A stretch of DNA of 64,000 nt. Origin: an uncultured virus (IMG/VR IMGVR_UViG_3300025120_000033) (Duplodnaviria; Heunggongvirae; Uroviricota; Caudoviricetes). This document shows positions 11,948-26,504 of this stretch, one piece after another. Each line of letters opens with the position of its first letter. The stretch's first letter is position 1. The translations under genes and the position numbers were made by a program. The notes beneath the pieces are model-generated. The model saw nothing but the letters and a program-made list of their open reading frames with translations. It was not told where the DNA came from and did no database searches. Where the stretch lies: the IMG/VR virus record IMGVR_UViG_3300025120_000033. One strand, 5' to 3'.

Positions 11948-14128
11948 CTAATCCCAACTCCTATCGAGCAGCCCCACACCCTTTTCGCCTCCGTCAGGCT
12001 TCGTGTATTCTATGTCATATACCTTCTTTCCGCCCGTCCTGCGCGGCTCAAGACCGTGATCGGAGAGCGTGCGTGCAGCCTCCTTGAAGTCACTCATCCT
12101 TGGGTTTGGTATGCCGAGATCACGCAGTAACTTGGTCATCTGCACCGCATCTGTCAGCGTTGAATCAAACCTGACGTGCTCCAAGATAAGATCCTCGACA
12201 CTGCTCTGCGTGCGATAAAGCTCGTTGCTCGCCTGCAGCATCTCGCGCTCATCAGGCGTCAGGAACCACGTCCTGTTGCCCTCCTCATACATCGTCTCGC
12301 GCACCTCTGCCCACACCTGCTGCATCGTTAGCCTGTGCCTAATGTCGATAGCCTTGACGGGCACAACCCAGAACCTTCGGTTGCCACTGGTGTCCACCAG
12401 AAACTCGCGTGCGTTAACACTAGCGAAGAATGCTGTGCGCCTCTTGTAGCTCGTAAATGCGCGGTCGTAGGGTAGCCGTAGCTCGTCAGACCTGCGCGTA
12501 ATGAATGCCTTGAGCTGATCAATGTCAGCCTTCTTAAACGTGCTCTCGATCTCCCCTGCCTCCACGATCCAGTGGCTCACGATCTGCTTCACCGAGTCCT
12601 TGTCGGCAGGGTTAATCGTCACCCCCTCCAGTAGCCAGTCCTCGTTGGGTGGGCAGAGCTTCTTGAACCACAGAGTCTTGCCCATGCCCTGCGCACCTTG
12701 GAACACCAACATACCTTCGAGCGCAACACCCTCCGGCTCGTATGCCGCAGCCACACAGCTCACCATCCACTTCTTCATCAGCATCTCTTTCAATTCTGTG
12801 TTCGGGCTAGTGACCGTATCGAGAAACATCTGCAGGCGACTCTTGCCGTCCCACGGCTTGCTCTCTATCCACTCCTTAACAGGGTTGAACTCCTTCGCAA
12901 GTAGCTTGAGGCAGTCGCGCACCCTCTGGTGCGGCATCCCCATCGTTATGCAGCGATCTTCGATCTCGATGAGCGCCGATTCGTCCTGCATATCCTGTAT
13001 GAAATCCGAGTTAGGCACCGCAATTTCCATGCGCTTCTTGATGGTGTTGTACCGCGCATCTATCTGGTTAACCGTTAACACGCCGCGTATATTTTCTTTG
13101 CTCGCAATGTATTTTCCGCTGTTATTTTTTTGAAAGTCAAAGCTCATGGGCACGTTGATCTCCTGCAGGGTGGGCATGACCTCCCCCTCGATCGCATCGC
13201 CTATCAGCTCCTGCTTGTGGTCGTTGTAGTCGCCCTTAGACTGCGGCATCAGAACGTCTGCCTGAGAGCCTGCGTCCCTGATCACCTGCGCTGCCTTGAT
13301 CGCCTCCCGCTCGCCCGTCATGCTGTCGTCGCAGTCTGCGATGATAACGTGCTTGGCCTTGGGAAAGAATTTAACAATCGACTCAGCGACCGGCGATAGG
13401 TTGAACGCATCGAAGGCCACCACCACGGGCTGATTAACATCCTCGAAGTAGGATGCGGCAGTGGCGTAGCCCTCGGCATAGTTTATCGTCGTCGCCGAGT
13501 CTAGCTGATTCACGCCGAGTATATAAAAGCTGCCCTTCTTCTTGGAACCAGTGAGAAACTTCTTGCCGCCGTCCTCGTCGATAAACTGCAGGCCAACGAT
13601 GCTTAGATCCTCGTCCCACATGGGTAGCATGAGCTGATTACCATCGCCAACCTTTAATCCGTGGTTCTCCACCCCCTTCTTCTTCAGGTAGGGATGAATC
13701 TCGATGTCCTTACCCTTGATCCACATATTCTGCGCCCGCTTCGCAGCCCTGTTGTTCTTCTCCTGCCTGTCGATAGCCGCCTGCTCTTTAAGTGCGCGTA
13801 TCTCCTCCCTCTGCTCATCTGTGATGGCTCGGTTGCCCTTGTTCTGTGGACGCCACACCGCCGTAGGCTTTTTATGGTCGAGCCGATAGTCACCTGCGTG
13901 ACCGTAAGGTAAACTCTGATCGAGCCAGAGCTGATACCACCCCACTAGCTTGCGCTTGCCATCCACGTCCATAAAGGCGCGGCCCACACTGCCATCTACG
14001 ATCAAACCCTTGTTCGGATCAACCTCAAGACCATTGGTAGCCAGAAAGCTCTCAAAATCGTCGCGCAGGTTGCCTGAGAGGGGCGTTGATGCGTCTTTTT
14101 GGTTCGGTCTTTTTATTTTGAGGCTCAT
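11948..14128 (-). CDS. Primase-helicase, Toprim plus VirE/VapE P-loop (copy A)
   Basis: HPYL, AEGYATA, ADCD Toprim; GAQGMGKT Walker A; DTSGNRRFW; start MSLKIK set from paralogue B. Confidence 0.9.
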   Translation of the reverse strand: MSLKIKRPNQKDASTPLSGNLRDDFESFLATNGLEVDPNKGLIVDGSVGRAFMDVDGKRKLVGWYQLWLDQSLPYGHAGDYRLDHKKPTAVWRPQNKGNRAITDEQREEIRALKEQAAIDRQEKNNRAAKRAQNMWIKGKDIEIHPYLKKKGVENHGLKVGDGNQLMLPMWDEDLSIVGLQFIDEDGGKKFLTGSKKKGSFYILGVNQLDSATTINYAEGYATAASYFEDVNQPVVVAFDAFNLSPVAESIVKFFPKAKHVIIADCDDSMTGEREAIKAAQVIRDAGSQADVLMPQSKGDYNDHKQELIGDAIEGEVMPTLQEINVPMSFDFQKNNSGKYIASKENIRGVLTVNQIDARYNTIKKRMEIAVPNSDFIQDMQDESALIEIEDRCITMGMPHQRVRDCLKLLAKEFNPVKEWIESKPWDGKSRLQMFLDTVTSPNTELKEMLMKKWMVSCVAAAYEPEGVALEGMLVFQGAQGMGKTLWFKKLCPPNEDWLLEGVTINPADKDSVKQIVSHWIVEAGEIESTFKKADIDQLKAFITRRSDELRLPYDRAFTSYKRRTAFFASVNAREFLVDTSGNRRFWVVPVKAIDIRHRLTMQQVWAEVRETMYEEGNRTWFLTPDEREMLQASNELYRTQSSVEDLILEHVRFDSTLTDAVQMTKLLRDLGIPNPRMSDFKEAARTLSDHGLEPRRTGGKKVYDIEYTKPDGGEKGVGLLDRSWD

Positions 14129-14199
14129 TGATGTTGACTCCATGTGTGTGGTGTTGCACAATATCATACAAATTTGCAAACTGACAAGAGGATATGTAC

Positions 14200-14895
14200 A
14201 TGGGACTAACAATTTCTTCAAGCGGCACTGGCGATCGAGAGACGCTACCTGTCGGGCAATACTCAGCAGTGTGCTATAAGATCGTTGACGTGGGCACACG
14301 GATGGAAACCTTTCAGCAGGACGACCCTAAAAAAAGAACGTCGGTCTGCATCTACTGGGAGGTCTCACACCCCAAGATGGCAGATGGTCGGCCTTTCAGT
14401 ATTATGAAACAATACACCTCGTCGCTCAACGAAAACGCCACGCTGCACAAGGATCTGAAGTCTTGGCGCGGCAAGAGCTTCACGGAGGAGGAGCTTCGAG
14501 GCTTTGAGATACAGAATATACTATCTGTGTCGGCTCAGCTTGAGGTTGCGCACACCGAGGGCGGTAACGCCAAGGTTGTGTCGGTCTTTAAACCAGATGG
14601 CGGTGCGAAAAAAACACCGACCGTCAACCCTGCGCAGGTGTTTGACCTTGAGGTGTACTGCCAAGAGTTTAGCGGCAAGAGTGATGCCAAGAGCAAGGAG
14701 ATGTGTGACGTGTTCGCCGACCTGCCCTCCTTTATGCAGGAGATGGTGAATGAGTCGTTTGAGATGAAGGCGGCAGAGAACAGCATGGCGTCAACGACTG
14801 GCGTTGATGGTTTAGCCGCAATCGCAAAGAAGACGGCTGCGGATAAAAAATCTTCTGAGCCGATCGTCGAATTTGACGACGACATTCCGTTCTAG
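14200..14895 (+). CDS. Single-stranded DNA-binding-like protein (copy A)
   Basis: Acidic DDDIPF C-terminal tail; divergent from primase. Confidence 0.75.
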   Translation: MGLTISSSGTGDRETLPVGQYSAVCYKIVDVGTRMETFQQDDPKKRTSVCIYWEVSHPKMADGRPFSIMKQYTSSLNENATLHKDLKSWRGKSFTEEELRGFEIQNILSVSAQLEVAHTEGGNAKVVSVFKPDGGAKKTPTVNPAQVFDLEVYCQEFSGKSDAKSKEMCDVFADLPSFMQEMVNESFEMKAAENSMASTTGVDGLAAIAKKTAADKKSSEPIVEFDDDIPF

Positions 14896-14897
14896 CC

Positions 14898-15098
14898 GTG
14901 CTCAAGATTGAGATTGACCAATCGCTTACGTGCTCGCTAGAGTTTACGAAGGCTAATATCGAGAGTGCATCTATCGGCGAGTTGGCAGATGCACTTGAGC
15001 TTTTGCACTATCTGGCGCGTGACCTAAAGCACCAAGACATGGCGTGGAAGATTCTTGAGGTATCCGACACGCTCAAGGAGAGACTGAGAAATGCCTGA
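14898..15098 (+). CDS. Hypothetical protein (copy A)
   Basis: ELADALELLHYLARDLK shared with 29783-29992. Confidence 0.75.
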   Translation: MLKIEIDQSLTCSLEFTKANIESASIGELADALELLHYLARDLKHQDMAWKILEVSDTLKERLRNA

Positions 15099-15321
15099 CA
15101 TGATTAACAGTCCTGAGCACTATGCCGCAGGCGGTATCGAAACCATCGACAGCATCAAGTCTTCAATGGTTACCGCCGAGATGTTTAACGGCTATCTGCA
15201 GGGAAACATCATCAAGTATGCAAGCAGGTGCTTTAGGAAGAACGAAGACCCGACCGAGGATCTAAAGAAGATGATCTGGTACGCCAATCGACTAATCAAA
15301 GAGGTGGAGGAGAATGCTTGA
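15091..15321 (+). CDS. DUF3310 protein (T7 gp1.7-like nucleotide kinase family, copy A)
   Basis: DMINSPEHY...IETID...GNIIKY..R...EDLKKMIWY. Confidence 0.85.
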   Translation: MPDMINSPEHYAAGGIETIDSIKSSMVTAEMFNGYLQGNIIKYASRCFRKNEDPTEDLKKMIWYANRLIKEVEENA

Positions 15322-15505
15322 TCGCGGGGATGTAGATGAGAACCTGCGGGACTGCCCGTGGATCCAACCAGACCCCGTAATGTGCGATCAGCACGATGTG
15401 GAGATGTCGGCGGAGGAGGATGAGGACGGCTTTACTATTCACCTCTGCCACATCTGCGAGTCGTTGTCCTTTCGACCTTTTCATAATCGCAGGAGATCAA
15501 TATGA
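15314..15505 (+). CDS. Small CxxH/CxxC protein (copy A)
   Basis: MLDRGDVDENL...CDQH...CHIC; paralogue at 30199-30384. Confidence 0.7.
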   Translation: MLDRGDVDENLRDCPWIQPDPVMCDQHDVEMSAEEDEDGFTIHLCHICESLSFRPFHNRRRSI

Positions 15506-15765
15506 ACAAGCAGAAAACATTTTTCGGAGATCCACCGGCAGAGTGGGAAGAGCACTGGAGGTCAATGCCTGAGTTCGTGCAGCCTAAGCAGGAGCCATAT
15601 GCGTGCATCAATGTGCGCTTCAGCAAGCAAGAAGATCTGGATAATTTTTCACAATTATTGGGGCAGAGCTTAAACCAAAAAACAAAAAGCATCTGGTATC
15701 CGTTTAAATCGCATTGGGGTGCGGATCATAACAAACAAGTTTGGATAGACAATGACCCCGATTAG
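15502..15765 (+). CDS. Hypothetical protein associated with glycosyltransferase
   Basis: W..MPEFVQ...VRF...TKSIWYP; AGGAG RBS. Confidence 0.7.
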   Translation: MNKQKTFFGDPPAEWEEHWRSMPEFVQPKQEPYACINVRFSKQEDLDNFSQLLGQSLNQKTKSIWYPFKSHWGADHNKQVWIDNDPD

Positions 15766-16612
15766 TCCAGTCTATATTGTAAGTAAGGGCAGATGGAAGA
15801 CTCGACTTACAAGCACGGCGCTTGAAAGGATGGGCATTGAATATTTAATGGTTGTTGAGGATGATGAGCACGATCTTTATGCCGAAAACATAGCGCCAAA
15901 AAAACTTCTGGTTCTGCCAAAATCTTACCTGCAAAATTACGATACCTGTGACGATCTAGGGCAATCAAAGTCAAAAGGCCCCGGCGCTGCTAGAAATTTT
16001 GCTTGGGATCATGCGGTCGAACATGGACACAAATACCACTGGGTTTTAGACGACAACCTCGACGACTTCCACAGGCTAAACAGAAATAAAAAAATAAAGG
16101 TCAGGACTGGGGCAACATTTAAGGCGTCGGAAGATTTTGTGAACCGCTACGAAAATATAGCGATCAGTGGGTTTAATTATTATTCGTTTGCAAAATCAAC
16201 AGATGCAGTTCCTCCCTTTGTAACCAACACAAGAATATATTCATGTCTTCTCATACGAAACGACATACCTTATCGGTGGCGGGGAAGATATAACGAAGAC
16301 ACTGACATATGTCTGCGCGTTTTGAAGGATGGTTATTGCACGGTGCAGTTTAATGCTTTTCTTTGCGGAAAGGTGACAACGCAAAGAATGGCAGGCGGAA
16401 ATACCGAAGAGTTCTATCGAAGCGAAGGAACCAAGTTAAAGAGTCAAATGATAGCTGACCTACACCCCGACGTTGCCTCTGTCGTTTGGAGATTCAACAG
16501 GTGGCATCACCACGTTGATTATTCAAGATTTAAAAATAAACTTATTTTGCAGTCAGGGATAAAAATTAATAAAGACAACAACGAATTTAACATGAAATTA
16601 AGTACGTCTTAA
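15752..16612 (+). CDS. TET-associated/GREB1-like glycosyltransferase (TAGT), putative DNA modification
   Basis: PVYIVSKGR, GPGAARN, HWVLDDN, RIYSCLLI, WRGRYNEDTD, GGNT motifs. Confidence 0.75.
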   Translation: MTPISPVYIVSKGRWKTRLTSTALERMGIEYLMVVEDDEHDLYAENIAPKKLLVLPKSYLQNYDTCDDLGQSKSKGPGAARNFAWDHAVEHGHKYHWVLDDNLDDFHRLNRNKKIKVRTGATFKASEDFVNRYENIAISGFNYYSFAKSTDAVPPFVTNTRIYSCLLIRNDIPYRWRGRYNEDTDICLRVLKDGYCTVQFNAFLCGKVTTQRMAGGNTEEFYRSEGTKLKSQMIADLHPDVASVVWRFNRWHHHVDYSRFKNKLILQSGIKINKDNNEFNMKLSTS

Positions 16613-16639
16613 CCCCACTTTTAGATAGAGGAATGTGCT

Positions 16640-17410
16640 ATGGATTTTAAGGTAGGCATCTATGAAGATCTCGACTACCCAACCTATGACTCGATACCGG
16701 CGTGGCGATCCCACGATTTGACTAGCATCTCTCGGTGCCCGTATTCTTGGAAGAATAAGGTGTTTAACAACTCTCCTGCCCTTCTGGAAGGAAGGGTTCA
16801 ACACTCAGTATTCTTAGAGTTGGATAAGTTCGACGAGGAGTACGCCATCGAGCCTGCGGTCGATAAGAGAACCAAGGTCGGAAAGGCTGAGTATGAAGAC
16901 TGGAAGACAACCGTGGGCGACCGCACGCCAGTCAAGCAAGACCTCGTTGATGTATGCATGGAGCGACGTGAGGTTCTTGCCGAGCACATACCCAAGCCAG
17001 AGCATCGGTGTGAGCTAACACTGTGTTGGGAGTGGCACGGCTATCCCTGCAAGGGTAAGCTAGACTGGCACACCGGCACCGACATCTGGGATCTCAAGAC
17101 CTGCCGCGATGCGTCGCCCCGTGGCTTTAAGTCTGCGGTGAATAACTTTTTGTATTTCCAACAGGCAGCGTATTATCTGACAGGGTGCCGCGCCGTAGGT
17201 TTACCAACCGAGAAATTTTATTTTCTTGCGGTCGAGAAGATGCACCCCTACCCCTTTGGCGTATTTACCCTGACTGAGGAGGCGATCGAGTACGGCAACG
17301 CCAAGAATGAGCAGGCGTTGGCGCTCGGACTGAGGTGCAGGGAGACTGGCATCTATCGACCGTACAATATGTCCGAAACCATCGAGTTCGATGTCAATGA
17401 TCTTTACTGA
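16640..17410 (+). CDS. PD-(D/E)XK exonuclease, DUF3799/RecE-like (copy A)
   Basis: EGRVQH...CKGKLD...DLKT...YFQQAAYY. Confidence 0.85.
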   Translation: MDFKVGIYEDLDYPTYDSIPAWRSHDLTSISRCPYSWKNKVFNNSPALLEGRVQHSVFLELDKFDEEYAIEPAVDKRTKVGKAEYEDWKTTVGDRTPVKQDLVDVCMERREVLAEHIPKPEHRCELTLCWEWHGYPCKGKLDWHTGTDIWDLKTCRDASPRGFKSAVNNFLYFQQAAYYLTGCRAVGLPTEKFYFLAVEKMHPYPFGVFTLTEEAIEYGNAKNEQALALGLRCRETGIYRPYNMSETIEFDVNDLY

Positions 17411-17591
17411 AGAGGAGGCGATCAAGGAGCGGCAGTGGGCAGATGACAAGAAGTACCACGCCGCCCGCTTCGCTTGGAAGAACCAACATCGTTACATTCC
17501 TAGCGGTAAGCTGAACTGGCGGCAGTGGTGGGAGAAAATGTTCAGTGATAATTTGATGGATTATGCGATGAAGAAGAAGAAGGACGGCTGA
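17391..17591 (+). CDS. Hypothetical protein (copy A)
   Basis: YHAARFAWK motif shared with 32193-32420. Confidence 0.7.
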   Translation: MSMIFTEEEAIKERQWADDKKYHAARFAWKNQHRYIPSGKLNWRQWWEKMFSDNLMDYAMKKKKDG

Positions 17592-17594
17592 TGG

Positions 17595-17936
17595 TTAGTC
17601 CAACCAACCGTCATAATATCTGACCTCCATACCCTCAGCTTTCAGATAATCGAGAGCTGACATCACGCTCGCTTCTGCAGATAAATTGCCCTGTCCTGTG
17701 GGGCATCGAACAACGGTCTTTAGCTCCGCCGTGCGTTTGTTGCGACCGCAGAACCAAACCTGAATGCCCTTGCCGCCTGTGCAACTGCCCTCATCCTTGG
17801 AGCCTTGTGCGACCCACTCATCGTACCAGAGCTTCTCTGAGAACTTGAGTATCGACGTAAGTTTGTCGATGTCGGCAGGTTGATACGCTTCCACAGTGTC
17901 TTCGTTTCGAGTGTAAAACTTCGGTGCTGTTTTCAT
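17595..17936 (-). CDS. Hypothetical early protein
   Basis: Preceded by hairpin-RBS element. Confidence 0.75.
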   Translation of the reverse strand: MKTAPKFYTRNEDTVEAYQPADIDKLTSILKFSEKLWYDEWVAQGSKDEGSCTGGKGIQVWFCGRNKRTAELKTVVRCPTGQGNLSAEASVMSALDYLKAEGMEVRYYDGWLD

Positions 17937-17960
17937 TTTTTTCTCCTGTGCCCCCCGTAG

Positions 17961-18138
17961 GGGCGGTTGGTAATTAACTTATCTAAAGATACAGCCGGTT
18001 TAAGTCGTCAGGTTATTGATCAAAAACCTCACCAAATTTATTGGAGCGCCAAAGATTACGCGCTGTGCTCAAACTTTTCGGGCATGGCTGTCCCTATCTG
18101 TATCTTTAGAAAAATGAATTCTTTCTCAACAGTTCCCA
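17961..18138 (-). ncRNA. Candidate structured ncRNA element, copy 1
   Basis: 178-bp direct repeat of 20278-20455; 13-bp closing inverted repeat with compensatory change; internal hairpins. Confidence 0.5.
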
Positions 18139-18146
18139 CTAGTCTC

Positions 18147-18269
18147 CTATGCCCCCTTGGGGGCGGTTCGTCCGCGCAAAAGGGCGTGGATTAACTTCGC
18201 CTCTTTGCCTTTGATTTTTGGATCTTTCTTAATGGCCTTATCGACCGCCTTTTTGTTGTACTTAGTCAC
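18147..18269 (-). CDS. Small basic protein
   Basis: GTG start, MTKYNKKAVDKAIKKDPKIKGKEAKLIHALLRGR. Confidence 0.6.
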   Translation of the reverse strand: MTKYNKKAVDKAIKKDPKIKGKEAKLIHALLRGRTAPKGA

Positions 18270-18867
18270 CCTTGACCTCCATTTTTGCTTTGGTTGGTCG
18301 CTTGTAAAAGCCGAACTTGTTATCGTCTTCGCTAGCCTCAACAGTCGCAGAGAAGGTAACGCGACTGCCTTTGACGGTAGTCCTATCCTCGTAGGCCGCG
18401 TTACTCAGTGATCTAGGCACGGAACCCCAGACTTTAAAGCCTCGATCATCACGAACCAACATCTTCAGAGTATCGCCGTAATAGCCTTCCTGAGTCTTGA
18501 CAGTGATGACCTCACCAGTGATGACCTGCTTGCCGTTCACGATAGCCTCTGCGTTAGCGTTCTCAGCAGCGCTCTTTGCCGCCCACTCAGCTTTTTTGGC
18601 TATGTTGCCATCAATGATCTTCAAGACAGCCGCGCCCTGATTTGGTGAAAGCTTGCCGTAAGCGCTAAGAGCTTCGTCCAAGCTTCTCGCAAATTCGTTG
18701 CTCATCGCATTGGAGAGTAGCCAAGTGTGGATCTCATCAGCACGCTCCTGAGTTTTTAACCATGTCTTGCGAGCGTTGGCGATAATGTTGCGCTTGATAG
18801 CGTTGCTATACGCCTCTGGGTTTTCGATTTCGCTCCCGCCTGCTATATACCCTACCCTGTGTCCCAT
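18262..18867 (-). CDS. Hypothetical early protein with C-terminal OB-fold-like segment
   Basis: ITGEVITVK...KVWGSVP...VTFSATV; first gene after promoter at 18912. Confidence 0.75.
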   Translation of the reverse strand: MGHRVGYIAGGSEIENPEAYSNAIKRNIIANARKTWLKTQERADEIHTWLLSNAMSNEFARSLDEALSAYGKLSPNQGAAVLKIIDGNIAKKAEWAAKSAAENANAEAIVNGKQVITGEVITVKTQEGYYGDTLKMLVRDDRGFKVWGSVPRSLSNAAYEDRTTVKGSRVTFSATVEASEDDNKFGFYKRPTKAKMEVKGD

Positions 18868-18894
18868 AACTTTCTCCAATTGATTAACTACATT

Positions 18895-18935
18895 GCTATA
18901 GTCTCACATATCGTGTCGTTGTGCAAGTGTTTGGA
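18895..18935 (-). promoter_or_regulatory. Early promoter TTGCACAACGACACGATATGTGAGACTATAGC
   Basis: Identical core to the promoter at 53863-53894. Confidence 0.75.
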
Positions 18936-18950
18936 CAAAATAAATCAAAA

Positions 18951-19178
18951 TTATTCCTCGGTCTTCCAAATGGTGATCTCTCGAACGCCATTAACCCTTT
19001 CTGAGCGAGTCACAACTTTGCACTTGGGATCTGACTGGCGAATCGCGGCGGAGATCTTTTGCTTCTCCAGATCGTCTTTGACGATCACGCAGTCGCCGTA
19101 CTCCATAAAATAAACAAATCCATACTTGACAGATCGACCTGCTCTTGCTGGGATTGGCTTGCCTTTGATAATCTCCAT
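18951..19178 (-). CDS. Small hypothetical protein (copy 2)
   Basis: Paralogue of 3168-3395. Confidence 0.8.
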   Translation of the reverse strand: MEIIKGKPIPARAGRSVKYGFVYFMEYGDCVIVKDDLEKQKISAAIRQSDPKCKVVTRSERVNGVREITIWKTEE

Positions 19179-19188
19179 GATTTTCTCC

Positions 19189-19554
19189 TTATCTCAAGCT
19201 TCCGAGAAGCGGGAATTCCCAATAGTCACCGACCTCATAGTCGTATTCAGCCGCATTTGTATCAACGTGCGTCGCATAATCGTAGCGACCTTCTATCCAC
19301 ACGACCGCATCAGTACCGAATTCTTTGACCGCTTCCGCAACCACCTGTTTTATGTATGCCATCGATATTCGGCCAGAGCCGTAATTGTCGTAGCGTTCGT
19401 TGTCATCCTTGTCGGCCATCACTATCTTCCACCCGTCCGTGGTGACAATCGGATAACCCCTGATCTTGTTTGCCGCGACACCCGCACGGACATCTCTGCG
19501 CAGTTCAGCGATTTGGTTAAGAATGCTTGGCGCCTTTTCTGTTACATTTTTCAC
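19189..19554 (-). CDS. Hypothetical early protein
   Basis: Preceded by hairpin-RBS element. Confidence 0.75.
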   Translation of the reverse strand: MKNVTEKAPSILNQIAELRRDVRAGVAANKIRGYPIVTTDGWKIVMADKDDNERYDNYGSGRISMAYIKQVVAEAVKEFGTDAVVWIEGRYDYATHVDTNAAEYDYEVGDYWEFPLLGSLR

Positions 19555-19589
19555 ACTAGTCTCCTAGCCCCCGCAGGGGCGGTTGGTGG

Positions 19590-20255
19590 TTAAGCGACCA
19601 TTTTTCGCTTGGTTGAGCCGACTTGGCTGTTCAGTGATACCTTCTTTCCTTTTGCGTAACCCGCGTTGTAAGCGTTCTGCGATACGCTGTAAGATCTTCC
19701 TGCGCTGTAGCTTAGATTGAAGCGCTTGATAATCAGGTCTTTCTTCACAACAACCAGATCTGTGCCAGTCGTTGCCTTGCTGAGCTCTTCCTCTCGCTCG
19801 GCCTTGATCTCTCGGCATCGATCTAAAATTGCGAATACCACCCCCATCTTGAAACTGTTGCGATCTCGGCGCGAGCCATCAAACTTCTTAGCCAGCCGCT
19901 CAGTCACAGCAACCAAGTAGTCAAACATCAGTAGCGCAACCTGAGTGTCTTCGGGCGTGCCGCAAAACTTTATCTCGTTGTTTCGCTTGGTCGGCAACGT
20001 GCTTGTGAGATAAGAGGCTGACCACGCCAGATTCCATACCCAGCTAGAGTTGCGACTCTCGCCAGTCTCAGCGGCCACCATGTCGTCCTTGTTGATAGTC
20101 TGCGCGGTGAGCTCGGCGTACTGAATGTCGTGCTTTCGCATCATGCTCTCGGCGCGGCGCAGTGCTATCGACGCCTCGTTCTCGTTAGACGCGGAGTGCT
20201 TGGCCATAGCCAGCAGTTTCTGCACTCGATCTAATAATTTCGCTCTATCGTTCAC
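19590..20255 (-). CDS. DUF2786-domain protein (copy 2)
   Basis: Paralogue of 2464-3132; GTG start after hairpin-RBS. Confidence 0.8.
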   Translation of the reverse strand: MNDRAKLLDRVQKLLAMAKHSASNENEASIALRRAESMMRKHDIQYAELTAQTINKDDMVAAETGESRNSSWVWNLAWSASYLTSTLPTKRNNEIKFCGTPEDTQVALLMFDYLVAVTERLAKKFDGSRRDRNSFKMGVVFAILDRCREIKAEREEELSKATTGTDLVVVKKDLIIKRFNLSYSAGRSYSVSQNAYNAGYAKGKKVSLNSQVGSTKRKMVA

Positions 20256-20277
20256 ACTAGTCTCCTAGCCCCCTCGG

Positions 20278-20455
20278 GGGCGGTTGGTAATTAACTTATT
20301 TAAAGATACAGCAGGTTTAAGTCGTCAGGTTTTTGATCAATAACCTCACCAAATTTATTGGAGCGCCAAAGATTACGCGCTGTGCTCAAACTTTTCGGGC
20401 ATGGCTGTCCCTATCTGTATCTTTAAAAAAATGAATTCTCTCTCAACAGTTCCCA
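20278..20455 (-). ncRNA. Candidate structured ncRNA element, copy 2
   Basis: Directly downstream of the minus-strand TATAAT promoter; 6 differences from copy 1. Confidence 0.5.
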
Positions 20456-20597
20456 TTATACATGGATCGTGTCGGTGTGCAACAGTTTGCACAAATATAA
20501 TTAGACTATGAAGTAATAAGAATTGATAGTTATATAACTAATTGTTCTAATCAAAATGTATAAATAAGTGTACAACGACATGGTATGTGCTATTATA
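20455..20597. promoter_or_regulatory. Divergent promoter pair (hub 2)
   Basis: -: TTGCACACCGACACGATCCATGTATAAT; +: TGTACAACGACATGGTATGTGCTATTAT. Confidence 0.75.
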
Positions 20598-20628
20598 TCC
20601 ATGTAGTTAATTGATTGAGGAGATCAAA

Positions 20629-21012
20629 ATGAAATTAGGAAAAGAAACTGGTTCGCTTGTGAACTACATCTATGGAAACTCTACTATCGGTGATGTAAAG
20701 ATTGGTGATCCAGCCACTCTGACAAGCTGGTCTGATCGAAGCGCCGCCACTGTTACCGACGTTTTTGCTTACGGCAAATATGATTACATCTCGGTGACAA
20801 AGGACATCTCGAAAGTTGTTGGCGGTACTGGCTATGGCGACGAGGTTTACGAATACAGCCGTGATCCAAATGGCTACGAAGAAACCTTCAGGGTCGTAGA
20901 CGGCAAATTGATTTCTGTTTACAAAAACACTGCAACAGGACGATGGATTAAGAGAAACTCTGGCGGTTGTTTTGTCGGGCGCAGAGATTCTTACCGAGAT
21001 CCTTCTTTCTAA
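20629..21012 (+). CDS. Hypothetical early protein
   Basis: GAGGAG RBS; ...WSDR...G.RD.YRDPSF end. Confidence 0.75.
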   Translation: MKLGKETGSLVNYIYGNSTIGDVKIGDPATLTSWSDRSAATVTDVFAYGKYDYISVTKDISKVVGGTGYGDEVYEYSRDPNGYEETFRVVDGKLISVYKNTATGRWIKRNSGGCFVGRRDSYRDPSF

Positions 21013-21045
21013 CCCGCTACAATAGGTTTTTATTGAGGATTTGGA

Positions 21046-21159
21046 ATGAGCAAAATTACGGTTGAATTGGACAAAGAGGACGCGGAGGTCGTCCTCGCTA
21101 ACCAGCAAGAAATTGTCGAGCTACTGCGGCAAATACTGGAGGAGCTAAAAAGTGGATAA
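21046..21159 (+). CDS. Small helical protein
   Basis: MSKITVELDKEDAEVVLANQQEIVELLRQILEELKSG; GAGGA RBS. Confidence 0.55.
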   Translation: MSKITVELDKEDAEVVLANQQEIVELLRQILEELKSG

Positions 21160-21325
21160 ATATTTTAGAACGCTGGAGGCGGTAAAGATTTCGGCAATTA
21201 AGCCCGAGATGTCGAAGCCACAGCAAATTCGCGCTTACAAAACTGCGCTAATACGGCATCATGGTATTCGTGATGAGGCAAAATACATCATTAACACTTG
21301 GATTGGAGAATCAAAAAATGGCTGA
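21152..21325 (+). CDS. Hypothetical protein
   Basis: GGAGG RBS, GTG start, coupled overlaps. Confidence 0.55.
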   Translation: MDKYFRTLEAVKISAIKPEMSKPQQIRAYKTALIRHHGIRDEAKYIINTWIGESKNG

Positions 21326-21506
21326 CAGATATGAGTTGGAAGAGTTTGTAAGGTCAAAAACGGGTGCAGGGTACGTTGTCACGCACAGTTGCACGGAAGA
21401 TAAATTCGAGATGATTGAGCGGCGGGCAAAGAAACTTGAGTCAGAAAAGACGCCATACAGCATCTACTACATCAACGAAAGCGGCTCTCGGAGTAGAGTC
21501 GCCTAG
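21318..21506 (+). CDS. Hypothetical protein
   Basis: GGAG RBS; MADRYELEEF... Confidence 0.6.
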   Translation: MADRYELEEFVRSKTGAGYVVTHSCTEDKFEMIERRAKKLESEKTPYSIYYINESGSRSRVA

Positions 21507-21622
21507 CCCCGCTCTTCTGCCTGAATCATTTTAAGCACTCGCTTCACCATAGCTTTGTGTAGAGGCGAGTCTGCTTGTCTTTCACCTTCATCATCTGCCG
21601 CGTTGAAGTCGAATCTCGGCAT
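21503..21622 (-). CDS. Possible 39-aa protein overlapping the end of the zeta-like polyprotein
   Basis: MPRFDFNAADDEGERQADSPLHKAMVKRVLKMIQAEERG; fills the gap, weak RBS. Confidence 0.35.
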   Translation of the reverse strand: MPRFDFNAADDEGERQADSPLHKAMVKRVLKMIQAEERG

Positions 21623-24524
21623 CTGTGAAGATGTCTGCGGTGTCTTCAATGAGCGGTTTAGGGACTTCAATCCCGACCGAGTTGTCGATTCTTGCATAGC
21701 CATCTGCTACTCCTTCTTTTCTAAGTATATCATAAGTGACTGACGGGAGATCTCCAACTTCGCCCATGTAATCTGGCGGTATCAACTTCTTGCTTTTAAT
21801 AAACCGAAGCAACATTCGCCTAAGCGCCTCTTCTTTTGATACCACAACGTCAACCAGATTGACTTTGTATCCCGCATCTTTGTAAGCGCTGATCTCAGCC
21901 ATAATCTTTTCTGGATTTGCGCCAACTGTTGGGATGACAATGTTGTTTTTATTGGCGATCATTAAATTACGAATATCCTTGGTAATCGCCTTCGATTCAA
22001 CGTGGGTGGCGTTACTGCCAACCCCGCCAGCAAACTCAGGCATTGCCTTCTTTACTTCGTCAGGATCCAGTATCGCGGCGTTTAATTTTCGGGCCAAGGG
22101 GTTGGCGACAGAGCTTTTGCCCGAAGCGGGTGGCCCTAGAATTATTGTCGCCGTTGGGTTCTTAACTCGACCCTTAACTGATCCGTTATATGCCATCTTC
22201 TCGTCTGTCCAGCCCAGCGCTTTCAGGTCATCGTACATTCTTTTCACCGCACCATCCAAGCCAACGATTTCTGTATCGCCCTTATCAAACGAGAAGCGGC
22301 GCTCCTGAAAATATTTGTCGGTGCCGTAACCGTCAAAAAATTGCGTTTCAGGCATCGTATTCATTTCAGACACAACGCGGGCAACGGCAGGATGGTTCTG
22401 CACAGTTGAGGCGCTGGTAGCATCTAACTTGGTTGTGTTGAGGTAGTTCAGCAGATCAGCCAGATCTGGATCGTCTGGGACAAGCTGTTCAATGTTGGGC
22501 GCCGCATCAATCGCCGCAAGTCTCGCGGCATCAACGCTCTCTATTCCGTCTGGAGCAATCGCCGCCATCTGATCGATTGACGCAATCCCAGAGCTATCTG
22601 CGGCGTTATCGAGGCGACTCATCTTTTGCAGGGCTCGGGGTAGCTTGAGTGCGGCGCCAACGCCCAGACCAACTGGTCCCATAACTGAGGCGGCATCGCC
22701 AACAAGCCCCAGACCTTGGAATCCCGCATCCAGATAGTTTCCTTCGCCAAGGTTCTGTGCCAACGAAAGATTGTTTTGATCCGCAAATATGTCGTCACCA
22801 GAGCCCATGGCGGGCATTTGGCCTGCCGCATCGATAGTGCCAGCACCAACAGGAAGTTGTGCGGCGATATAGGCCATCTGCTCGGGTGTTAGCTTCAAAG
22901 AGGACTCTCGACCCATCATTTCGCTGACAGATCCGCCCATGTTGTACCCAAATATGTCTATTTTGTCCACAGAACCCCCGTCAGCGTAATCTGTGCCGTA
23001 ATTTTCGTTCATATACCTGTTCATAGCGTCAATCTTTTCGTCAGTCATTCTCTCAAACAAGTGGCGGCGCTCCAAAGCACCAACCTGCTGCTCATAAGGA
23101 AACAACTCGCCCGCCTTATTAACCGACTTTGAGAGCATATTGAAAGTATCTGGGAACATTATCTCGGGGGGAAGGCTCTGCTCTAGGCCACCGAGGTATT
23201 TGCCCGCGATACTCTTATTGTAGCTCTGATGAATAGGCTCATCAAAGATTGAGGCGTTAGGCACGGCATCAAACATGGCGTAACCAGATGCTCCACGTGG
23301 AACGTCGGCCAACTCGGGCATGGTGATGGTTTTTGCAACGTCTTCGTATACAGGAAAGCCTTGCTTGGTAAACATATCTTTCTTCATATGTGAAACAAGC
23401 GCGGTCCTGATCTGTCCTGCGCCCTTCCTAGGAAATCCGCCCTCACCAAGCAACTGATTAAATACGTCAGGACTTTCTAACCCTACCCAGTCTGGCCTAG
23501 CCTTCAGGGTGGGGTTCTTTTTAGTTTGATCGCCAATACCTCGGCGCATGGCGTCGTCAAATTCTTTGATTGCGCTCTTGGGTATGCCGATAGCGGGTAT
23601 CTGAGCAACCATTGCAGTAGCAACTGGGGCAGAGAAGTCGATGCCGTCTCGCGCCATGGCGGAATAGACGCCCACGGGGTCTAGCCCAGTTTCGTCGGCG
23701 GCAAGGGTTATATTGTTTTGCTTGGACTGGGCGATACCTTCCATCGATGCCCAGCCAGCGCCACGGCCTTCATTGATAATCATGTAGTCTGGGCCGCCCT
23801 GCACTGGAACCGCACGACTAAGTGGCACGCCATTGACGTCAACCAGAGAAGATATGCCTTGGCCCTGTATCGAGAGGGACCTGTCACCAGCCACGGGCAC
23901 CAAAACTTTACCCAAGAGGCTCTCTGGCGCCTGAATGATACGGGACTGTGGCGCGAACGTCGCTATCTCGCCCTCGGCGCGTAGTCTCTCTCGGCGGAAC
24001 ACGGCTGGAGTTTCGAGTTTTTTCTGATATGTGTTGGCTCGGGTCTTTACCGTAGCGGGCTTGACGCCCAAAGCCTCTTGCTCTTGACGGAACTTCTCTG
24101 TAAGATCTTTGCGACTCATCTTCGCTTGAGTAGCCATCTTCATGGTTTTCTGCACCGCCCTCGGCGCCTTCAGCGTAGCCCCTATCGCGGGCCCCACGGC
24201 AGGTATCGCATACGCAAAATCGCCTGCCGCACCCAATCCCTGAAGCGCGGCATCTAGGTATTTATCCGACCTCAAATTTTCAGCCATAGAAGGGTTGTTT
24301 TCAGCGCTAAACAGGTCAACTATGTCTGCCTCAGATGACGGCATACCCGCCATTTGACCAGCGGCATCTAGGGTTCCAGCGCTCGGAGCAAACTGCGCGG
24401 CAAGGTAGGCAAGTTGCGTGGGGGTGAGGATTGGCTCTTGATCGAGGTTTAACATGGTGGGGTCATTCATTAGCTGACCGACGCTACCGCCCATATTGTA
24501 CTCAAAGATGTCGATATCCTTCAC
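21591..24524 (-). CDS. Modular polyprotein (unknown domain plus zeta-toxin-like P-loop kinase)
   Basis: Two DIF[EG]YNMGGSV plus carrier units; IILGPPASGKS...ILDPDEVKK...H.ES zeta-toxin signature. Confidence 0.8.
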   Translation of the reverse strand: MKDIDIFEYNMGGSVGQLMNDPTMLNLDQEPILTPTQLAYLAAQFAPSAGTLDAAGQMAGMPSSEADIVDLFSAENNPSMAENLRSDKYLDAALQGLGAAGDFAYAIPAVGPAIGATLKAPRAVQKTMKMATQAKMSRKDLTEKFRQEQEALGVKPATVKTRANTYQKKLETPAVFRRERLRAEGEIATFAPQSRIIQAPESLLGKVLVPVAGDRSLSIQGQGISSLVDVNGVPLSRAVPVQGGPDYMIINEGRGAGWASMEGIAQSKQNNITLAADETGLDPVGVYSAMARDGIDFSAPVATAMVAQIPAIGIPKSAIKEFDDAMRRGIGDQTKKNPTLKARPDWVGLESPDVFNQLLGEGGFPRKGAGQIRTALVSHMKKDMFTKQGFPVYEDVAKTITMPELADVPRGASGYAMFDAVPNASIFDEPIHQSYNKSIAGKYLGGLEQSLPPEIMFPDTFNMLSKSVNKAGELFPYEQQVGALERRHLFERMTDEKIDAMNRYMNENYGTDYADGGSVDKIDIFGYNMGGSVSEMMGRESSLKLTPEQMAYIAAQLPVGAGTIDAAGQMPAMGSGDDIFADQNNLSLAQNLGEGNYLDAGFQGLGLVGDAASVMGPVGLGVGAALKLPRALQKMSRLDNAADSSGIASIDQMAAIAPDGIESVDAARLAAIDAAPNIEQLVPDDPDLADLLNYLNTTKLDATSASTVQNHPAVARVVSEMNTMPETQFFDGYGTDKYFQERRFSFDKGDTEIVGLDGAVKRMYDDLKALGWTDEKMAYNGSVKGRVKNPTATIILGPPASGKSSVANPLARKLNAAILDPDEVKKAMPEFAGGVGSNATHVESKAITKDIRNLMIANKNNIVIPTVGANPEKIMAEISAYKDAGYKVNLVDVVVSKEEALRRMLLRFIKSKKLIPPDYMGEVGDLPSVTYDILRKEGVADGYARIDNSVGIEVPKPLIEDTADIFTDAEIRLQRGR

Positions 24525-24790: not shown

Positions 24791-25185
24791 GTCTCACTCC
24801 AAGTTCTTTTTAAAATCTCCAGCCATTGCGGCAACGTCATCACGACTGTTTGGGCGTTGTCGCGCTCCCAGCTAGGGTTTACGGCGTACATTGGCACGCA
24901 GACGCGAATAGCCTTGTTGTTAAATTTGTAAATCAACACGGGCGTTCTGTCGCCGCAGGATTCGCACACTTGATGCCACCAAGCAGGAGAATACCACCAG
25001 CCTGATTTATAACTCTTGGCTTCGATGGCGTGGTCGGGGATCTCGATATCACACTGACCAACGCTCTGATACTGATCCAAGTTGCGCTTGCACTCAAAAT
25101 CAAATCCGTGCTCGGCAAAAAAAGTATTTAGCCGCTTGACCAGATCGCGCTCAAAGCTGGCGCCTTTCGTTCGACTATCTGCCAC
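24787..25185 (-). CDS. Holliday junction resolvase-like nuclease (copy B)
   Basis: SRTKGASFER...CD...IEAK; paralogue of 10072-10482. Confidence 0.8.
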   Translation of the reverse strand: MADSRTKGASFERDLVKRLNTFFAEHGFDFECKRNLDQYQSVGQCDIEIPDHAIEAKSYKSGWWYSPAWWHQVCESCGDRTPVLIYKFNNKAIRVCVPMYAVNPSWERDNAQTVVMTLPQWLEILKRTWSET

Positions 25186-25499
25186 AAAATTCTCCTAAAA
25201 ATTTTAACCCTAGGATTCCTAGGGGGTCTTTCCTGAAAGCGATCCTGTAGCCAGTTTACCCAGAAAAAAGTTCAATCTCAAAAAACCAAATTGAGTTGCA
25301 AAATTATTCGGTGCGAGTACATTAAGAAAGACGCTGGCTCGATGCGTCGTTAAACAAAGCGGCAAGCGCTTTCCTAGCAAAATTATCAGCCGCCAAAATT
25401 GAGTAAGGGCGGGGTTGCGATTCCCACATAGCCGACCTAATCCCATCGGTGCCCGAAGCGGGATTAGTTGGTTGAGAATTTTTTGAATATTATATGAGA

Positions 25500-25640
25500 A
25501 AAACTCAGTTAAACCCGTATCGCCGCGCCGCGCCGCGATCAGGGGGGTGCCCCCCAAAAAACCATCCAAGATCTCAAATCTTTTTTCCCGACCCCATAGG
25601 GTTCCTTTATTAGTTCGAATGATTCTCACTCAACCCCCCA
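25500..25640. other. Conserved non-coding block, candidate packaging/terminus region (copy B)
   Basis: Same ordered motifs as 10790-10935. Confidence 0.45.
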
Positions 25641-26498: not shown

Positions 26499-26504
26499 AT
26501 GCAC

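What the first reader, a model, noticed from the sequence alone, without database searches (positions are those of the whole stretch)
17961..20455. Duplicated 178-bp structured non-coding element with compensatory changes and retron-ncRNA-like layout
Seen: 17961-18138 and 20278-20455 differ at only 6 positions. A perfect 13-bp closing inverted repeat co-varies (TCTAAAGATACAG/CTGTATCTTTAGA vs TTTAAAGATACAG/CTGTATCTTTAAA) and encloses about four hairpins. Copy 2 starts right behind an early TATAAT promoter, so it would lead the transcript. Established: retron msr-msd RNAs have terminal a1/a2 repeats around stem-loops, and some phages make RNA mimics of defence RNAs. No RT is present here. Inference: an early structured ncRNA, possibly an anti-defence decoy. 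It also holds a 27-codon ORF (MGTVE.EFIFLKIQIGTAMPEKFEHSA) with an RBS in copy 1 only.
Basis: partly seen in the sequence, partly recalled or inferred. Interest (0 to 1): 0.75.

Follow-up and report, generated by a model that had tools for sequence, protein, structure and literature searches.

The report
Shared structured RNA cassette in phages
The duplicated stretch is a real, roughly 150-base folded RNA module, carried twice in this marine phage's early genes and also found in an unrelated marine phage group, belonging to no known RNA family and showing no sign of being a retron.

Summary
17961-18138 and 20278-20455 differ at 6 of 178 positions, and the full repeat is 190 nt.

The unit is composite. 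On the minus strand, the strand of the genes, it reads: a conserved promoter leader, a ~150-nt core, a short linker, then the phage's usual GC hairpin plus ribosome-binding site.

The core is at 17972-18120 and 20289-20437. A 22-23 bp A/T-rich helix closes five inner helices. Nine distinct variants come from two phage lineages that share no detectable protein. They keep 99.1% of pair cells, and 5 pairs show changes on both sides. G-U pairs favour the gene strand.

Close relatives have a small ORF or nothing in the same slot, so the element is accessory and exchanged horizontally.

- **Known families:** no Rfam family matches.
- **Retron:** no reverse transcriptase was found among 63 ORFs.
- **Peptide:** the 27-codon frame shows 0 synonymous changes in its 10 differing codons.

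Best reading, inferred: an early co-transcribed RNA cassette whose two-turn helix is cut by host RNase III, releasing a stable small RNA. Its function is unknown. The retron-like reading is not supported.

The parts
17972..18120 (-). Copy 1 of the structured core, 149 nt. Closing helix arms at 18098-18120 (5' arm) and 17972-17994 (3' arm). Inner helices: H2 18080-18094, H3 18068-18074 with 17998-18004, H4 18045-18064, H5 18033-18043, H6 18007-18032.
   Evidence: Consensus fold of 9 variants and pair counts. Covariance model R1 scores 173.2 bits on the minus strand and 30 bits on the plus strand.
20289..20437 (-). Copy 2 of the structured core, 149 nt. Closing helix arms at 20415-20437 and 20289-20311. 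Inner helices: H2 20397-20411, H3 20385-20391 with 20315-20321, H4 20362-20381, H5 20350-20360, H6 20324-20349.
   Evidence: 172.8 bits on the minus strand, 28.9 on the plus strand.
17952..18141 (-). Whole 190-nt repeat unit, copy 1: leader, core, linker and the start of the GC hairpin.
   Evidence: (D1).
20269..20458 (-). Whole 190-nt repeat unit, copy 2.
   Evidence: (D1).
20434..20454 (-). Conserved leader just downstream of the promoter-like block. It is also present in relatives L005, L007 and L008, which lack the core. A second copy is at 18117-18137.
   Evidence: (2 matches, 0.01 expected).
20455..20482 (-). Promoter-like block: TTGCAC at 20482-20477, a 16-nt spacer, TATAAT at 20460-20455. 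It is conserved upstream of the homologous gene in L006, L007, L008 and L009, and at window 2160-2190.
   Evidence: Read by eye. The consensus scan does not list it.
17943..17963 (-). GC hairpin plus Shine-Dalgarno module in front of gene F.
   Evidence: 7 such sites in the window, 0.07 expected; D2.
18137..18163 (-). GC hairpin plus Shine-Dalgarno plus GTG module, fused directly to the leader of copy 1. This creates the start of the 27-codon frame.
   Evidence: The same junction occurs in L032 and L033 behind other upstream genes.
20255..20280 (-). GC hairpin plus Shine-Dalgarno plus GTG start of gene A, directly after copy 2.
18056..18139 (-). 27-codon frame over the 5' half of copy 1. It is probably a by-product of the fusion and is not conserved as a gene.
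19590..20255 (-). Gene A, 221 aa (DUF2786 plus DUF7168, phrog_421), downstream of copy 2.
17595..17936 (-). Gene F, 113 aa with no family match, downstream of copy 1.

Best explanation
The element is a portable, accessory RNA cassette of marine phages.

Shown:
- A ~150-nt stretch, always oriented like the flanking genes, folds into a 22-23 bp A/T-rich closing helix around a three-way and a four-way junction (helices H2 to H6).
- The pairing is kept by compensatory and G-U changes across two phage lineages that share no detectable protein.
- Close relatives lack the element or hold a small ORF in its place.

Inferred:
- It is co-transcribed with early genes by the host RNA polymerase. Copy 2 starts about 12 nt behind the expected start of a promoter-like block. 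Copy 1 lies between cistrons.
- The two-turn helix is cut by host RNase III. That separates the flanking messages and releases a stable core RNA of roughly 110-130 nt.
- The invariant unpaired parts are the GAAAA junction, the whole H5 hairpin and a GATC-centred palindromic loop in H6. These would be read by a host partner rather than a phage one, so the RNA acts in trans as a host-takeover or counter-defence factor.

My odds: structured RNA under selection about 0.85; RNase III processing about 0.6; trans-acting released RNA about 0.4.

The duplication in this phage arose by cassette shuffling at the repeated hairpin and ribosome-binding modules, not by transposition.
For: Structure: 49 pairs in 6 helices. 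99.1% of 441 cells are paired, against 31-45% when the 3' partners are slid. 5 pairs and 15 cells changed on both sides. 0 of 500 shuffles reach the covariation score. Of 16 pairs that vary, 14 stay paired in all 9 sequences.

Strand: 437 of 441 cells pair on the gene strand against 422 on the other. 8 pairs show G-U on the gene strand. Only 1 pair shows A-C, which would be G-U on the other strand.

Orientation: the element matches the downstream gene in every context seen. These are in front of gene A, in front of gene F, in L039, and in front of two different genes of the AT-rich lineage.

Two lineages: the window is 48.5% GC with an SU10-like portal and adaptor. The second lineage is 35-37% GC with T7-like primase/helicase and DNA polymerase. 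blastp finds nothing at E<=1e-4 between them. The cores are 79-89% identical.

Accessory status: the element is present upstream of 3 of 14 gene-A homologues, absent in 10, with 1 truncated. It is present upstream of 1 of 9 gene-F homologues, absent in 7, with 1 truncated. An element-less join is seen in DNA contigs of run X2. 1 of 10 related records searched whole holds it.

Helix length: 23 continuous pairs in 5 of 5 AT-rich variants and 22 in the window lineage. The idealised E. coli RNase III substrate is 22 bp, and T7 early RNA carries five such signals (PMC3867540, passages).

Varied positions: a 5' leader (copy 2, L006, L009), between cistrons (copy 1, L032, L033), and ahead of an intrinsic terminator (L039). 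This argues against a regulator tied to one gene.

Conservation: the J2/3 junction, H5 and its loop have 0 variable columns, while the H4 loop varies at 8 of 10.
Against: - There is no RNA evidence. No listed sequencing run that holds the stretch is RNA, so transcription, processing and a discrete product are all inferred.
- The promoter is read by eye, and the consensus scan does not list it.
- There are only 9 variants in two lineages plus one hybrid (L006), so the independent compensatory events are few. I count about 6.
- The number of pairs changed on both sides is reached by 73 of 500 shuffles, and further pair types by 340 of 500.
- In the AT-rich lineage the element travels with its own ribosome-binding site in front of two different genes. 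That fits a cis role equally well.
- G-T pairs are also tolerated in single-stranded DNA, so a gene-strand ssDNA signal is not excluded.
- The second lineage is known only from fragments, the largest 17 kb. A shared phage protein partner could lie in unseen parts.
- Folding energy does not separate the strands: z is -3.07 on the gene strand and -3.18 on the other.
Confidence: 0.4

Rival explanations
1. It is a cis-acting processing and insulation module. The helix is an RNase III or stability signal that uncouples neighbouring cistrons and sets the 5' end and translation of the downstream message. This is how T7 early processing sites work, and how transcribed Correia elements work. The core has no trans role.
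For: The closing helix ends 0-6 nt before the Shine-Dalgarno sequence in all AT-rich variants. The block of element plus ribosome-binding site plus ATG is shared in front of two different genes, L034 and L038. The second lineage has a T7-like replication module, and T7 early RNA has five RNase III signals (PMC3867540). Correia elements of 70-157 bp are RNase III substrates when transcribed (PMC2649163, passages).
Against: A plain processing helix does not need a conserved 105-nt multi-helix core. H2, H3, H4 and H6 keep their pairing through changes, and H5 plus the GAAAA junction are invariant. In L039 the element is followed by a terminator, not directly by a gene. In the window lineage another hairpin lies between the element and the ribosome-binding site.
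Confidence: 0.28
2. It is a selfish, miniature inverted-repeat DNA element (MITE-like or Correia-like) that transposes between phage genomes. The RNA fold is a side effect of its terminal inverted repeats.
For: It has 23-bp terminal inverted repeats and is about 150 bp long. It shows presence/absence polymorphism among close relatives. Near-identical copies occur in unrelated genomes. The core's GC of 0.29-0.38 is nearer the AT-rich lineage, which suggests import. In L046 the hexamer AAGGAG lies on both sides.
Against: The outer arm positions covary rather than stay fixed: pairs 9-143 and 12-140 show AU/UA and AU/CG/UA. Ends read by a transposase should be conserved. The inner hairpins also keep pairing by compensated changes. 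No consistent target-site duplication is seen in the other contexts. There are only 2 copies in 64 kb, both sharing 20-33 nt of non-element leader, so this duplication came from recombination. No transposase is linked. The exact 20-mer is absent from 185,579 species genomes.
Confidence: 0.1
3. It is a processive antitermination RNA, working as the put RNAs of phage HK022 do (recalled from memory). It would fold just behind an early promoter, bind host RNA polymerase and carry it through the hairpins between the early genes.
For: It sits promoter-proximal in copy 2, L006 and L009. There are two copies in one phage. The operon is studded with GC hairpins. Sequence conservation across lineages would be expected if the partner were the conserved host polymerase.
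Against: The GC hairpins lack T runs, and the scan does not call them terminators. A 23-bp closing helix is not a feature I recall for such RNAs. Copy 1 and the L032, L033 and L039 contexts are far from a promoter. There is no Rfam match.
Confidence: 0.06
4. It works at the DNA level, as a replication origin, a recombination site for the window's serine recombinase (917-1708), a set of operators, or a single-strand initiation signal.
For: It holds several palindromes, has very A/T-rich outer arms and carries a GATC. There are two direct copies 2.3 kb apart, and a resolvase-family gene lies in the window. The H6 near-palindrome is swapped between the copies as if inverted (I2).
Against: Strand asymmetry of wobble pairs: 8 pairs against 1. 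Strict co-orientation with transcription. It is dispensable in close relatives. It is also present in a lineage where no resolvase was seen among 19 scanned ORFs.
Confidence: 0.05
5. One reading: a retron-type msr-msd RNA, or a mimic of one that acts as a decoy for a retron defence system.
For: A terminal inverted repeat encloses stem-loops. It is an early, accessory cassette.
Against: No reverse transcriptase was found among 63 window ORFs, which include every non-overlapping ORF of 160 aa or more, nor among 19 ORFs of G002. No Rfam family, msr included, comes near its threshold. There is no long msd-like hairpin. Nothing ties it to any host retron.
Confidence: 0.03
6. The conservation reflects a small peptide, the 27-codon frame.
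For: The frame has a ribosome-binding site plus GTG in copy 1, L032 and L033, and an ATG in copy 2. It is open as far as the same stop in 6 of 9 variants.
Against: Between the lineages 10 of 20 codons differ, and every difference changes the residue. None is synonymous. The stop is lost in L006, L027 and L031. The AT-rich lineage has no start codon or ribosome-binding site in that frame (sequence). The frame covers only the first ~84 of 190 nt, yet the rest is equally conserved. In copy 2 the ATG lies inside the -10 hexamer.
Confidence: 0.02

Closest known systems
RNase III processing signals of phage T7 early RNA
   Same: An intercistronic hairpin in a host-transcribed polycistronic early message. 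The helix is about two turns long. The window-lineage variants have mismatches in the helix, as many natural sites do (PMC3867540, passages).
   Different: Here the helix closes a conserved 105-nt core of five helices with invariant loops. The same element is shared by unrelated phages and is dispensable in close relatives. There is no sequence or Rfam relation.
Correia repeat-enclosed elements (CREE) of Neisseria
   Same: Both are about 70-157 bp, with inverted-repeat ends around a conserved directional core. Both sit mostly 5' of genes, vary in presence between strains, occur within a prophage, and are RNase III substrates when transcribed (PMC2649163, passages).
   Different: CREE occur in over 100 copies per bacterial genome. 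Here there are 2 per phage, and the exact 20-mer was absent from the genome-contig scan. The arm sequences here covary instead of being fixed, and the inner hairpins are under structural selection. No IHF site or target duplication has been shown.
PeSL-type regulatory cassettes that mediate modular shuffling in T4-type phages
   Same: Repeated promoter and stem-loop modules bound small accessory early genes, and insertions, deletions and replacements happen at them (PMC2839356 and PMC4122927, search listing only). Here the GC hairpin plus ribosome-binding module occurs 7 times and marks the crossover points.
   Different: This describes how the cassette moves within the window lineage, not what it is. 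The cargo here is an RNA structure, not an ORF.
Phage-encoded RNA decoys, for example RNA anti-CRISPRs (Racr)
   Same: Small non-coding RNAs carried as accessory elements in viral genomes and acting on host immunity (PMC10651486, start of abstract only).
   Different: Racrs mimic CRISPR repeats. No likeness to any repeat or host RNA was found or tested here, so this is only a functional analogy.
Retron msr-msd RNA
   Same: Terminal complementary stretches enclose stem-loops.
   Different: There is no reverse transcriptase, no msr match and no long msd hairpin.

Membership tests
Retron (msr-msd ncRNA with reverse transcriptase) | A reverse transcriptase gene next to the ncRNA | tested here: not met
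   Pfam on 63 window ORFs found no RT family. PHROGs on 19 of 32 ORFs of G002 found none.
Retron (msr-msd ncRNA with reverse transcriptase) | Match to known msr RNA models | tested here: not met
   Rfam 15 scans at E<=10 over 16000-22500, 17930-18180 and L038 1380-1660 gave only chance-level rows, all far below their gathering scores.
Retron (msr-msd ncRNA with reverse transcriptase) | Terminal a1/a2 inverted repeats around the RNA | tested here: met
   A 22-23 bp closing helix. This feature is not specific to retrons.
Retron (msr-msd ncRNA with reverse transcriptase) | A priming guanosine after a1 and a long msd hairpin that is copied into DNA | tested here: inconclusive
   The core has four short hairpins of 3-7 pairs and no long one. 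A branching G cannot be told from sequence.
Bacterial RNase III processing signal (works-like claim) | A continuous or nearly continuous dsRNA helix of about 22 bp | tested here: met
   23 pairs in 5 of 5 AT-rich variants. 22 pairs with 1-2 mismatches in 4 of 4 window-lineage variants. The reference length comes from PMC3867540.
Bacterial RNase III processing signal (works-like claim) | Cleavage by RNase III in vivo or in vitro | not testable with these tools
   No RNA run holds the stretch.
MITE / Correia-like transposable repeat | Conserved terminal inverted repeats | tested here: inconclusive
   The inner 11 bp of the arms are invariant. The outer 12 positions differ between lineages while remaining complementary.
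MITE / Correia-like transposable repeat | A target-site duplication of fixed length at independent insertions | tested here: inconclusive
   The flanks are A/T-rich and differ. Only L046 shows a flanking repeat, AAGGAG.
MITE / Correia-like transposable repeat | Many dispersed copies per genome | tested here: not met
   Model R1 finds 2 copies in the 64-kb window and 1 each in G002, G003 and G004.
Any Rfam 15 family | A score at or above the family's gathering threshold | tested here: not met
   The best row over the element is 14.9 bits against a threshold of 49.
tRNA / tmRNA | Detection by ARAGORN | tested here: not met
   0 genes in the whole window.
Small protein gene | A conserved frame with a start signal and an excess of synonymous change | tested here: not met
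   0 of the 10 differing codons are synonymous, the stop is lost in 3 of 9 variants, and the AT-rich lineage has no start.

The most novel reading that the evidence does not exclude
The element is an RNA 'moron': a horizontally exchanged early cassette whose product is RNA, not protein. Host RNase III would cut it out of the early message. Its invariant surfaces are the GAAAA junction, the H5 hairpin and the palindromic GATC loop, which could also let two copies pair loop to loop. These surfaces would capture a conserved host factor, for example a defence or RNA-surveillance protein. That would explain why two phage lineages with no detectable protein in common keep the same 150 nt.
Probability: 0.2. 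Interest if true: 0.8.

Novelty: new variant of a known kind. Interest (0 to 1): 0.52.

Why it matters
Accessory early cassettes of phages are where host-takeover and counter-defence functions are usually found, and nearly all known ones are proteins. Here an RNA structure fills such a slot and is kept by selection. Two otherwise unrelated marine phage lineages, found in contigs of the same record sets, share it.

If the RNA is released and acts on a host factor, it adds a class to the short list of phage RNA effectors. If it is only a processing and insulating module, it is a natural, portable way to uncouple genes in a polycistronic message.

Either way, natural variants with and without the element exist side by side, so the question can be tested directly.

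The finding also corrects the retron reading. It shows how the duplication arose: by shuffling at repeated hairpin and ribosome-binding modules.

Tried and rejected
- **RNA evidence:** The look-up of sequencing runs listed 20 holders from 11 studies, all DNA contigs, with no RNA holder listed. Expression is therefore untested.
- **DNA contigs:** Read laying on 4 DNA runs gave population variants but cannot show RNA ends.
- **Known phages:** megablast of 17900-20650 and blastn of the 190-nt unit against 50,697 phage records gave no match. Records near the window may be left out of that collection.
- **Rfam:** three scans found nothing near threshold.
- **tRNA and tmRNA:** none.
- **Bacterial and archaeal genomes:** the exact 20-mer gave 0 hits. 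A loose pattern of the two inner arms gave more than 120 chance hits in unrelated taxa. Model R1 found 0 matches in the 80 loci fetched.
- **Nearest virus record:** G001 has no copy, but it covers only window 34546-64000.
- **IMG/VR:** four different patterns always returned the same 2-6 contigs, 7 distinct contigs in all. More distant members could not be reached without a collection-wide model search.
- **Promoter scan:** it does not list the minus-strand block, so I keep the promoter as an eye reading backed by conservation.
- **Fremin et al. 2023:** 6 supplement files were searched for two motif spellings and two record numbers without a hit. Files 1, 2 and 4 were not searched. Whether the motif is among their 10,006 candidates stays open.
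- **Earlier notes of this scan:** none.
- **Target-site duplication:** inconclusive.
- **Failed look-ups:** a search of the window's own assembly and a draw of relatives for a virus record were not possible.
- **Considered from recall only and dropped for lack of any shared feature that could be tested:** Y RNA, phi29 packaging RNA, integron attC, IS200/IS605-type hairpin ends, riboswitch (a 23-bp P1 is too stable to switch), and attP (no genome match).


Full report
**1. The observation**

17961-18138 and 20278-20455 are 178 nt long and differ at 6 positions. The repeat finder extends the pair to 190 nt at 95% identity, 17952-18141 and 20269-20458. Each copy carries a 13-nt perfect inverted repeat. 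This extends to 23 nt at 87% complementarity, with 103 nt between the arms (I4 and I5). The 11-mer of the arm occurs exactly four times in the window, only at these arms. At up to one mismatch there are 5 matches where 0.96 are expected.

**2. Strand and anatomy**

Every plausible gene between 17595 and 20255 lies on the minus strand, so the element is read on that strand. On the minus strand, copy 2 reads in this order:
- a promoter-like block: TTGCAC at 20482-20477, 16 nt, TATAAT at 20460-20455;
- a leader at 20454-20434;
- the inverted-repeat-bounded core at 20437-20289;
- a short linker;
- a GC hairpin with Shine-Dalgarno sequence and GTG at 20280-20255;
- gene A.

The promoter is my reading by eye. 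The consensus scan does not list it, because its first hexamer matches only 3 of 6. The block is, however, conserved in front of the homologous gene in L006, L007, L008 and L009 and at window 2160-2190.

Copy 1 has the same leader, core and linker, but it sits behind the hairpin, Shine-Dalgarno and GTG module that follows gene E (18163-18137). That fusion supplies the ribosome-binding site and GTG of the 27-codon frame. The GC hairpin plus Shine-Dalgarno module occurs at 7 sites in the window, where 0.07 are expected.

**3. The repeat is composite and the core is accessory**

Of 14 IMG/VR loci that encode a gene-A homologue, I read the upstream DNA of all:
- 3 carry the core (L003, which is identical to the window, plus L009 and L006);
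- 10 do not (L005, L007, L008, L010-L016);
- 1 is cut off (L004).

L007 and L008 have the promoter and leader joined straight to the gene's ribosome-binding site. L005 has a small ORF in the slot, and L010-L012 have a different ORF.

Of 9 gene-F loci, 1 carries the core (L017), 7 have other genes ending in the same hairpin module, and 1 is cut off. Ten related viral records were searched whole with the model. Only G004, which is identical to the window here, has it.

DNA contigs of four marine or brine runs show the same mosaic. Run X2 holds an element-less join of the L007 type at depth 75.6, beside element-bearing contigs. Runs also hold joins of the leader to other cassettes.

In L032 and L033 the leader plus core sits behind two further upstream genes, with the identical junction seen in copy 1. 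In L039 it is followed by the GC hairpin, then an intrinsic terminator, then the next gene.

So the 190-nt duplication is a cassette moved by recombination at the repeated regulatory modules. This is the pattern described for PeSL modules of T4-type phages (PMC2839356 and PMC4122927, seen only as search listing).

**4. A second, unrelated lineage**

A 20-mer of the core found 5 stretches in IMG/VR and 11 in metagenome contigs. A second pattern added L046. Several of these lie in DNA of 35-37% GC, against 48.5% for the window.

The largest such record, G002 of 17 kb, has a T7-like primase/helicase, DNA polymerase, gp2.5-like protein, MazG and HNH endonuclease. The window has an SU10-like portal and adaptors, a terminase and VapE-type primases. 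blastp of all ORFs of 40 aa or more from five AT-rich loci against the window's ORFs gave nothing at E<=1e-4.

Even so, the cores are 79-89% identical between the lineages. In the AT-rich lineage the closing helix is 23 continuous pairs. The element is followed within 0-6 nt by a Shine-Dalgarno sequence and sits in front of two different genes. Contig names of both lineages share prefixes, which fits co-occurrence.

**5. Structure and selection**

Nine distinct full-length variants were aligned on the gene strand (alignment A3). RNAalifold gives 49 pairs in six helices:
- H1 is the closing helix.
- H2 is a hairpin.
- H3 closes a four-way junction with hairpins H4, H5 and H6.

Pair counts:

| Measure | Result |
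|---|---|
| Cells forming standard pairs | 99.1% of 441 |
| Same, with 3' partners slid by 1-3 columns | 31-45% |
| Pairs changed on both sides | 5 (15 cells) |
| Shuffles reaching the covariation score | 0 of 500 |
| Shuffles reaching the share of paired cells | 0 of 500 |
| Shuffles reaching the number of pairs changed on both sides | 73 of 500 |
| Shuffles reaching the number of further pair types | 340 of 500 |

Pair 12-140 shows three Watson-Crick types (AU, CG, UA). H2 has three pairs changed on both sides. Of 16 variable pairs, 14 stay paired in all sequences.

Variable columns make up 20 of 98 paired and 21 of 53 unpaired columns. The variable unpaired columns are concentrated in the loops of H4 (8 of 10) and H6 (5 of 11). 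The GAAAA junction, H5 and its loop never vary.

The sample is small. It amounts to two lineages and one hybrid (L006), so I count only about six independent compensated events.

**6. Which strand**

On the gene strand 437 of 441 cells pair; on the other strand 422 do. Eight pairs show G-U on the gene strand. One shows A-C, which would be G-U on the other strand. If both strands were equal, 8 or more out of 9 has a chance of about 0.02 by my arithmetic.

Model R1 scores 173 bits on the minus strand and 29-30 on the plus strand, though it was built on the minus strand. Folding energies do not separate the strands. The result favours a single-stranded form of the gene strand, most simply RNA. 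Single-stranded DNA is not excluded.

**7. What it is not**

- **No known RNA family.** There is no Rfam match and no tRNA or tmRNA.
- **Not a retron.** No reverse transcriptase was found among 63 window ORFs, a set that includes every non-overlapping ORF of 160 aa or more, nor among the 19 scanned ORFs of G002. The core has no long msd-type hairpin.
- **Not a peptide gene.** Between the lineages 10 of 20 codons differ, and every difference changes the residue. The stop is lost in 3 of 9 variants. The AT-rich lineage has no start.
- **Probably not a classic MITE.** There are two copies only, the outer arm positions covary, and no consistent target duplication is seen.
- **Not found elsewhere.** It is absent from isolated phages in the collection searched and from 185,579 species genomes by exact 20-mer.

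**8. How it most likely works**

Shown: this is a conserved, strand-specific fold, always co-oriented with genes. It occupies a slot that otherwise holds small accessory early ORFs, and it is exchanged between unrelated phages.

Inferred:
- It is co-transcribed with early genes.
- Its 22-23 bp A/T-rich helix has the length of the idealised E. coli RNase III substrate. T7 early RNA carries five such signals (PMC3867540, passages). Host RNase III probably cuts it, separating the flanking messages and freeing the core.
- The core keeps five helices and invariant unpaired motifs, and the two lineages share no detectable protein. I therefore favour a released RNA read by a host partner, at about 0.4, over a purely cis processing and insulation role, at about 0.28.
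- The cis reading is helped by the tight link to a ribosome-binding site in the AT-rich lineage.
- The H6 loop holds a palindrome centred on an invariant GATC. It could allow loop-to-loop pairing of two copies, or it could simply be a methylation site in DNA. This is unexplained.

**9. Comparison and novelty**

The element works most like a T7-type RNase III signal or a transcribed Correia element (PMC2649163, passages). It moves within its lineage like a PeSL-bounded cassette. It belongs to none of these families.

Large screens have listed thousands of candidate viral RNA structures (PMC10690425, abstract and outline). Part of that paper's supplements could be searched and gave no hit, but three files were not searched. 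I therefore cannot say the motif is unlisted there.

I rate it a new variant of a known kind. It is of moderate interest, and the interest would be higher if the RNA proves to be a trans-acting effector.

Noticed in passing
window 10072-17482 vs 24875-32287; 2426-3405 vs 20294-18941 (inverted): The window holds two paralogous early/replication modules. Each has a PDDEXK_15 nuclease, a VapE/Toprim primase, DUF3310 and a DUF3799 exonuclease, and there are two DUF2786/DUF7168 genes. They are 66-79% identical in nucleotides. Either the phage carries a diverged duplicate, or the record joins two related phages. The nearest held record, G001, covers only 34546-64000.
   Followed up: partly
window 2439-2457, 3143-3161, 17943-17963, 18144-18163, 19561-19579, 20262-20280, 54619-54640: A GC hairpin immediately followed by a Shine-Dalgarno sequence recurs at 7 sites, where 0.07 are expected. 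It marks the boundaries at which relatives differ in gene content.
   Followed up: partly
window 18877-18939, 20466-20495, 20557-20617, 2078-2125, 53836-53919: A conserved promoter-like block is repeated on both strands around the early regions (D4 and I1). The copy at 20466-20495 holds an inverted repeat, TGTGCAA..TTGCACA, that could be an operator.
   Followed up: no
window 18007-18032 vs 20324-20349: The near-palindrome in helix 6 differs between the two copies at two mirror positions (T..T against A..A on the minus strand). As a result each copy equals the reverse complement of the other there (I2). This could be a small inversion or two point changes. L006 has the paired A..T form.
   Followed up: partly
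window 21591-24524 (-): A 977-aa ORF has a C-terminal zeta-toxin-like/AAA_33 kinase domain at residues 786-919 and internally repeated N-terminal halves. Its weak PHROG hits include a minor head protein.
   Followed up: no
window 15752-16612 (+) and 35126-35869 (-): A TET-associated glycosyltransferase (E 5.7e-52) and a weak OGFOD2-like dioxygenase hit below its cut-off suggest modified DNA bases in this phage.
   Followed up: no
window 51416-51568: There is a tandem 78-nt (75-nt offset) repeat at 97% identity inside the 402-aa ORF at 50891-52099.
   Followed up: no
window 17400-18125 vs 18126-21000: In contigs of runs X1, X2 and X5, summed depth over gene F and copy 1 is several-fold lower than over 18126-21000. 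Loose ends at 18143-18156 lead into other sequence. This suggests the gene E, copy 1, gene F arrangement is a minority form. Contig depth is a weak measure.
   Followed up: no
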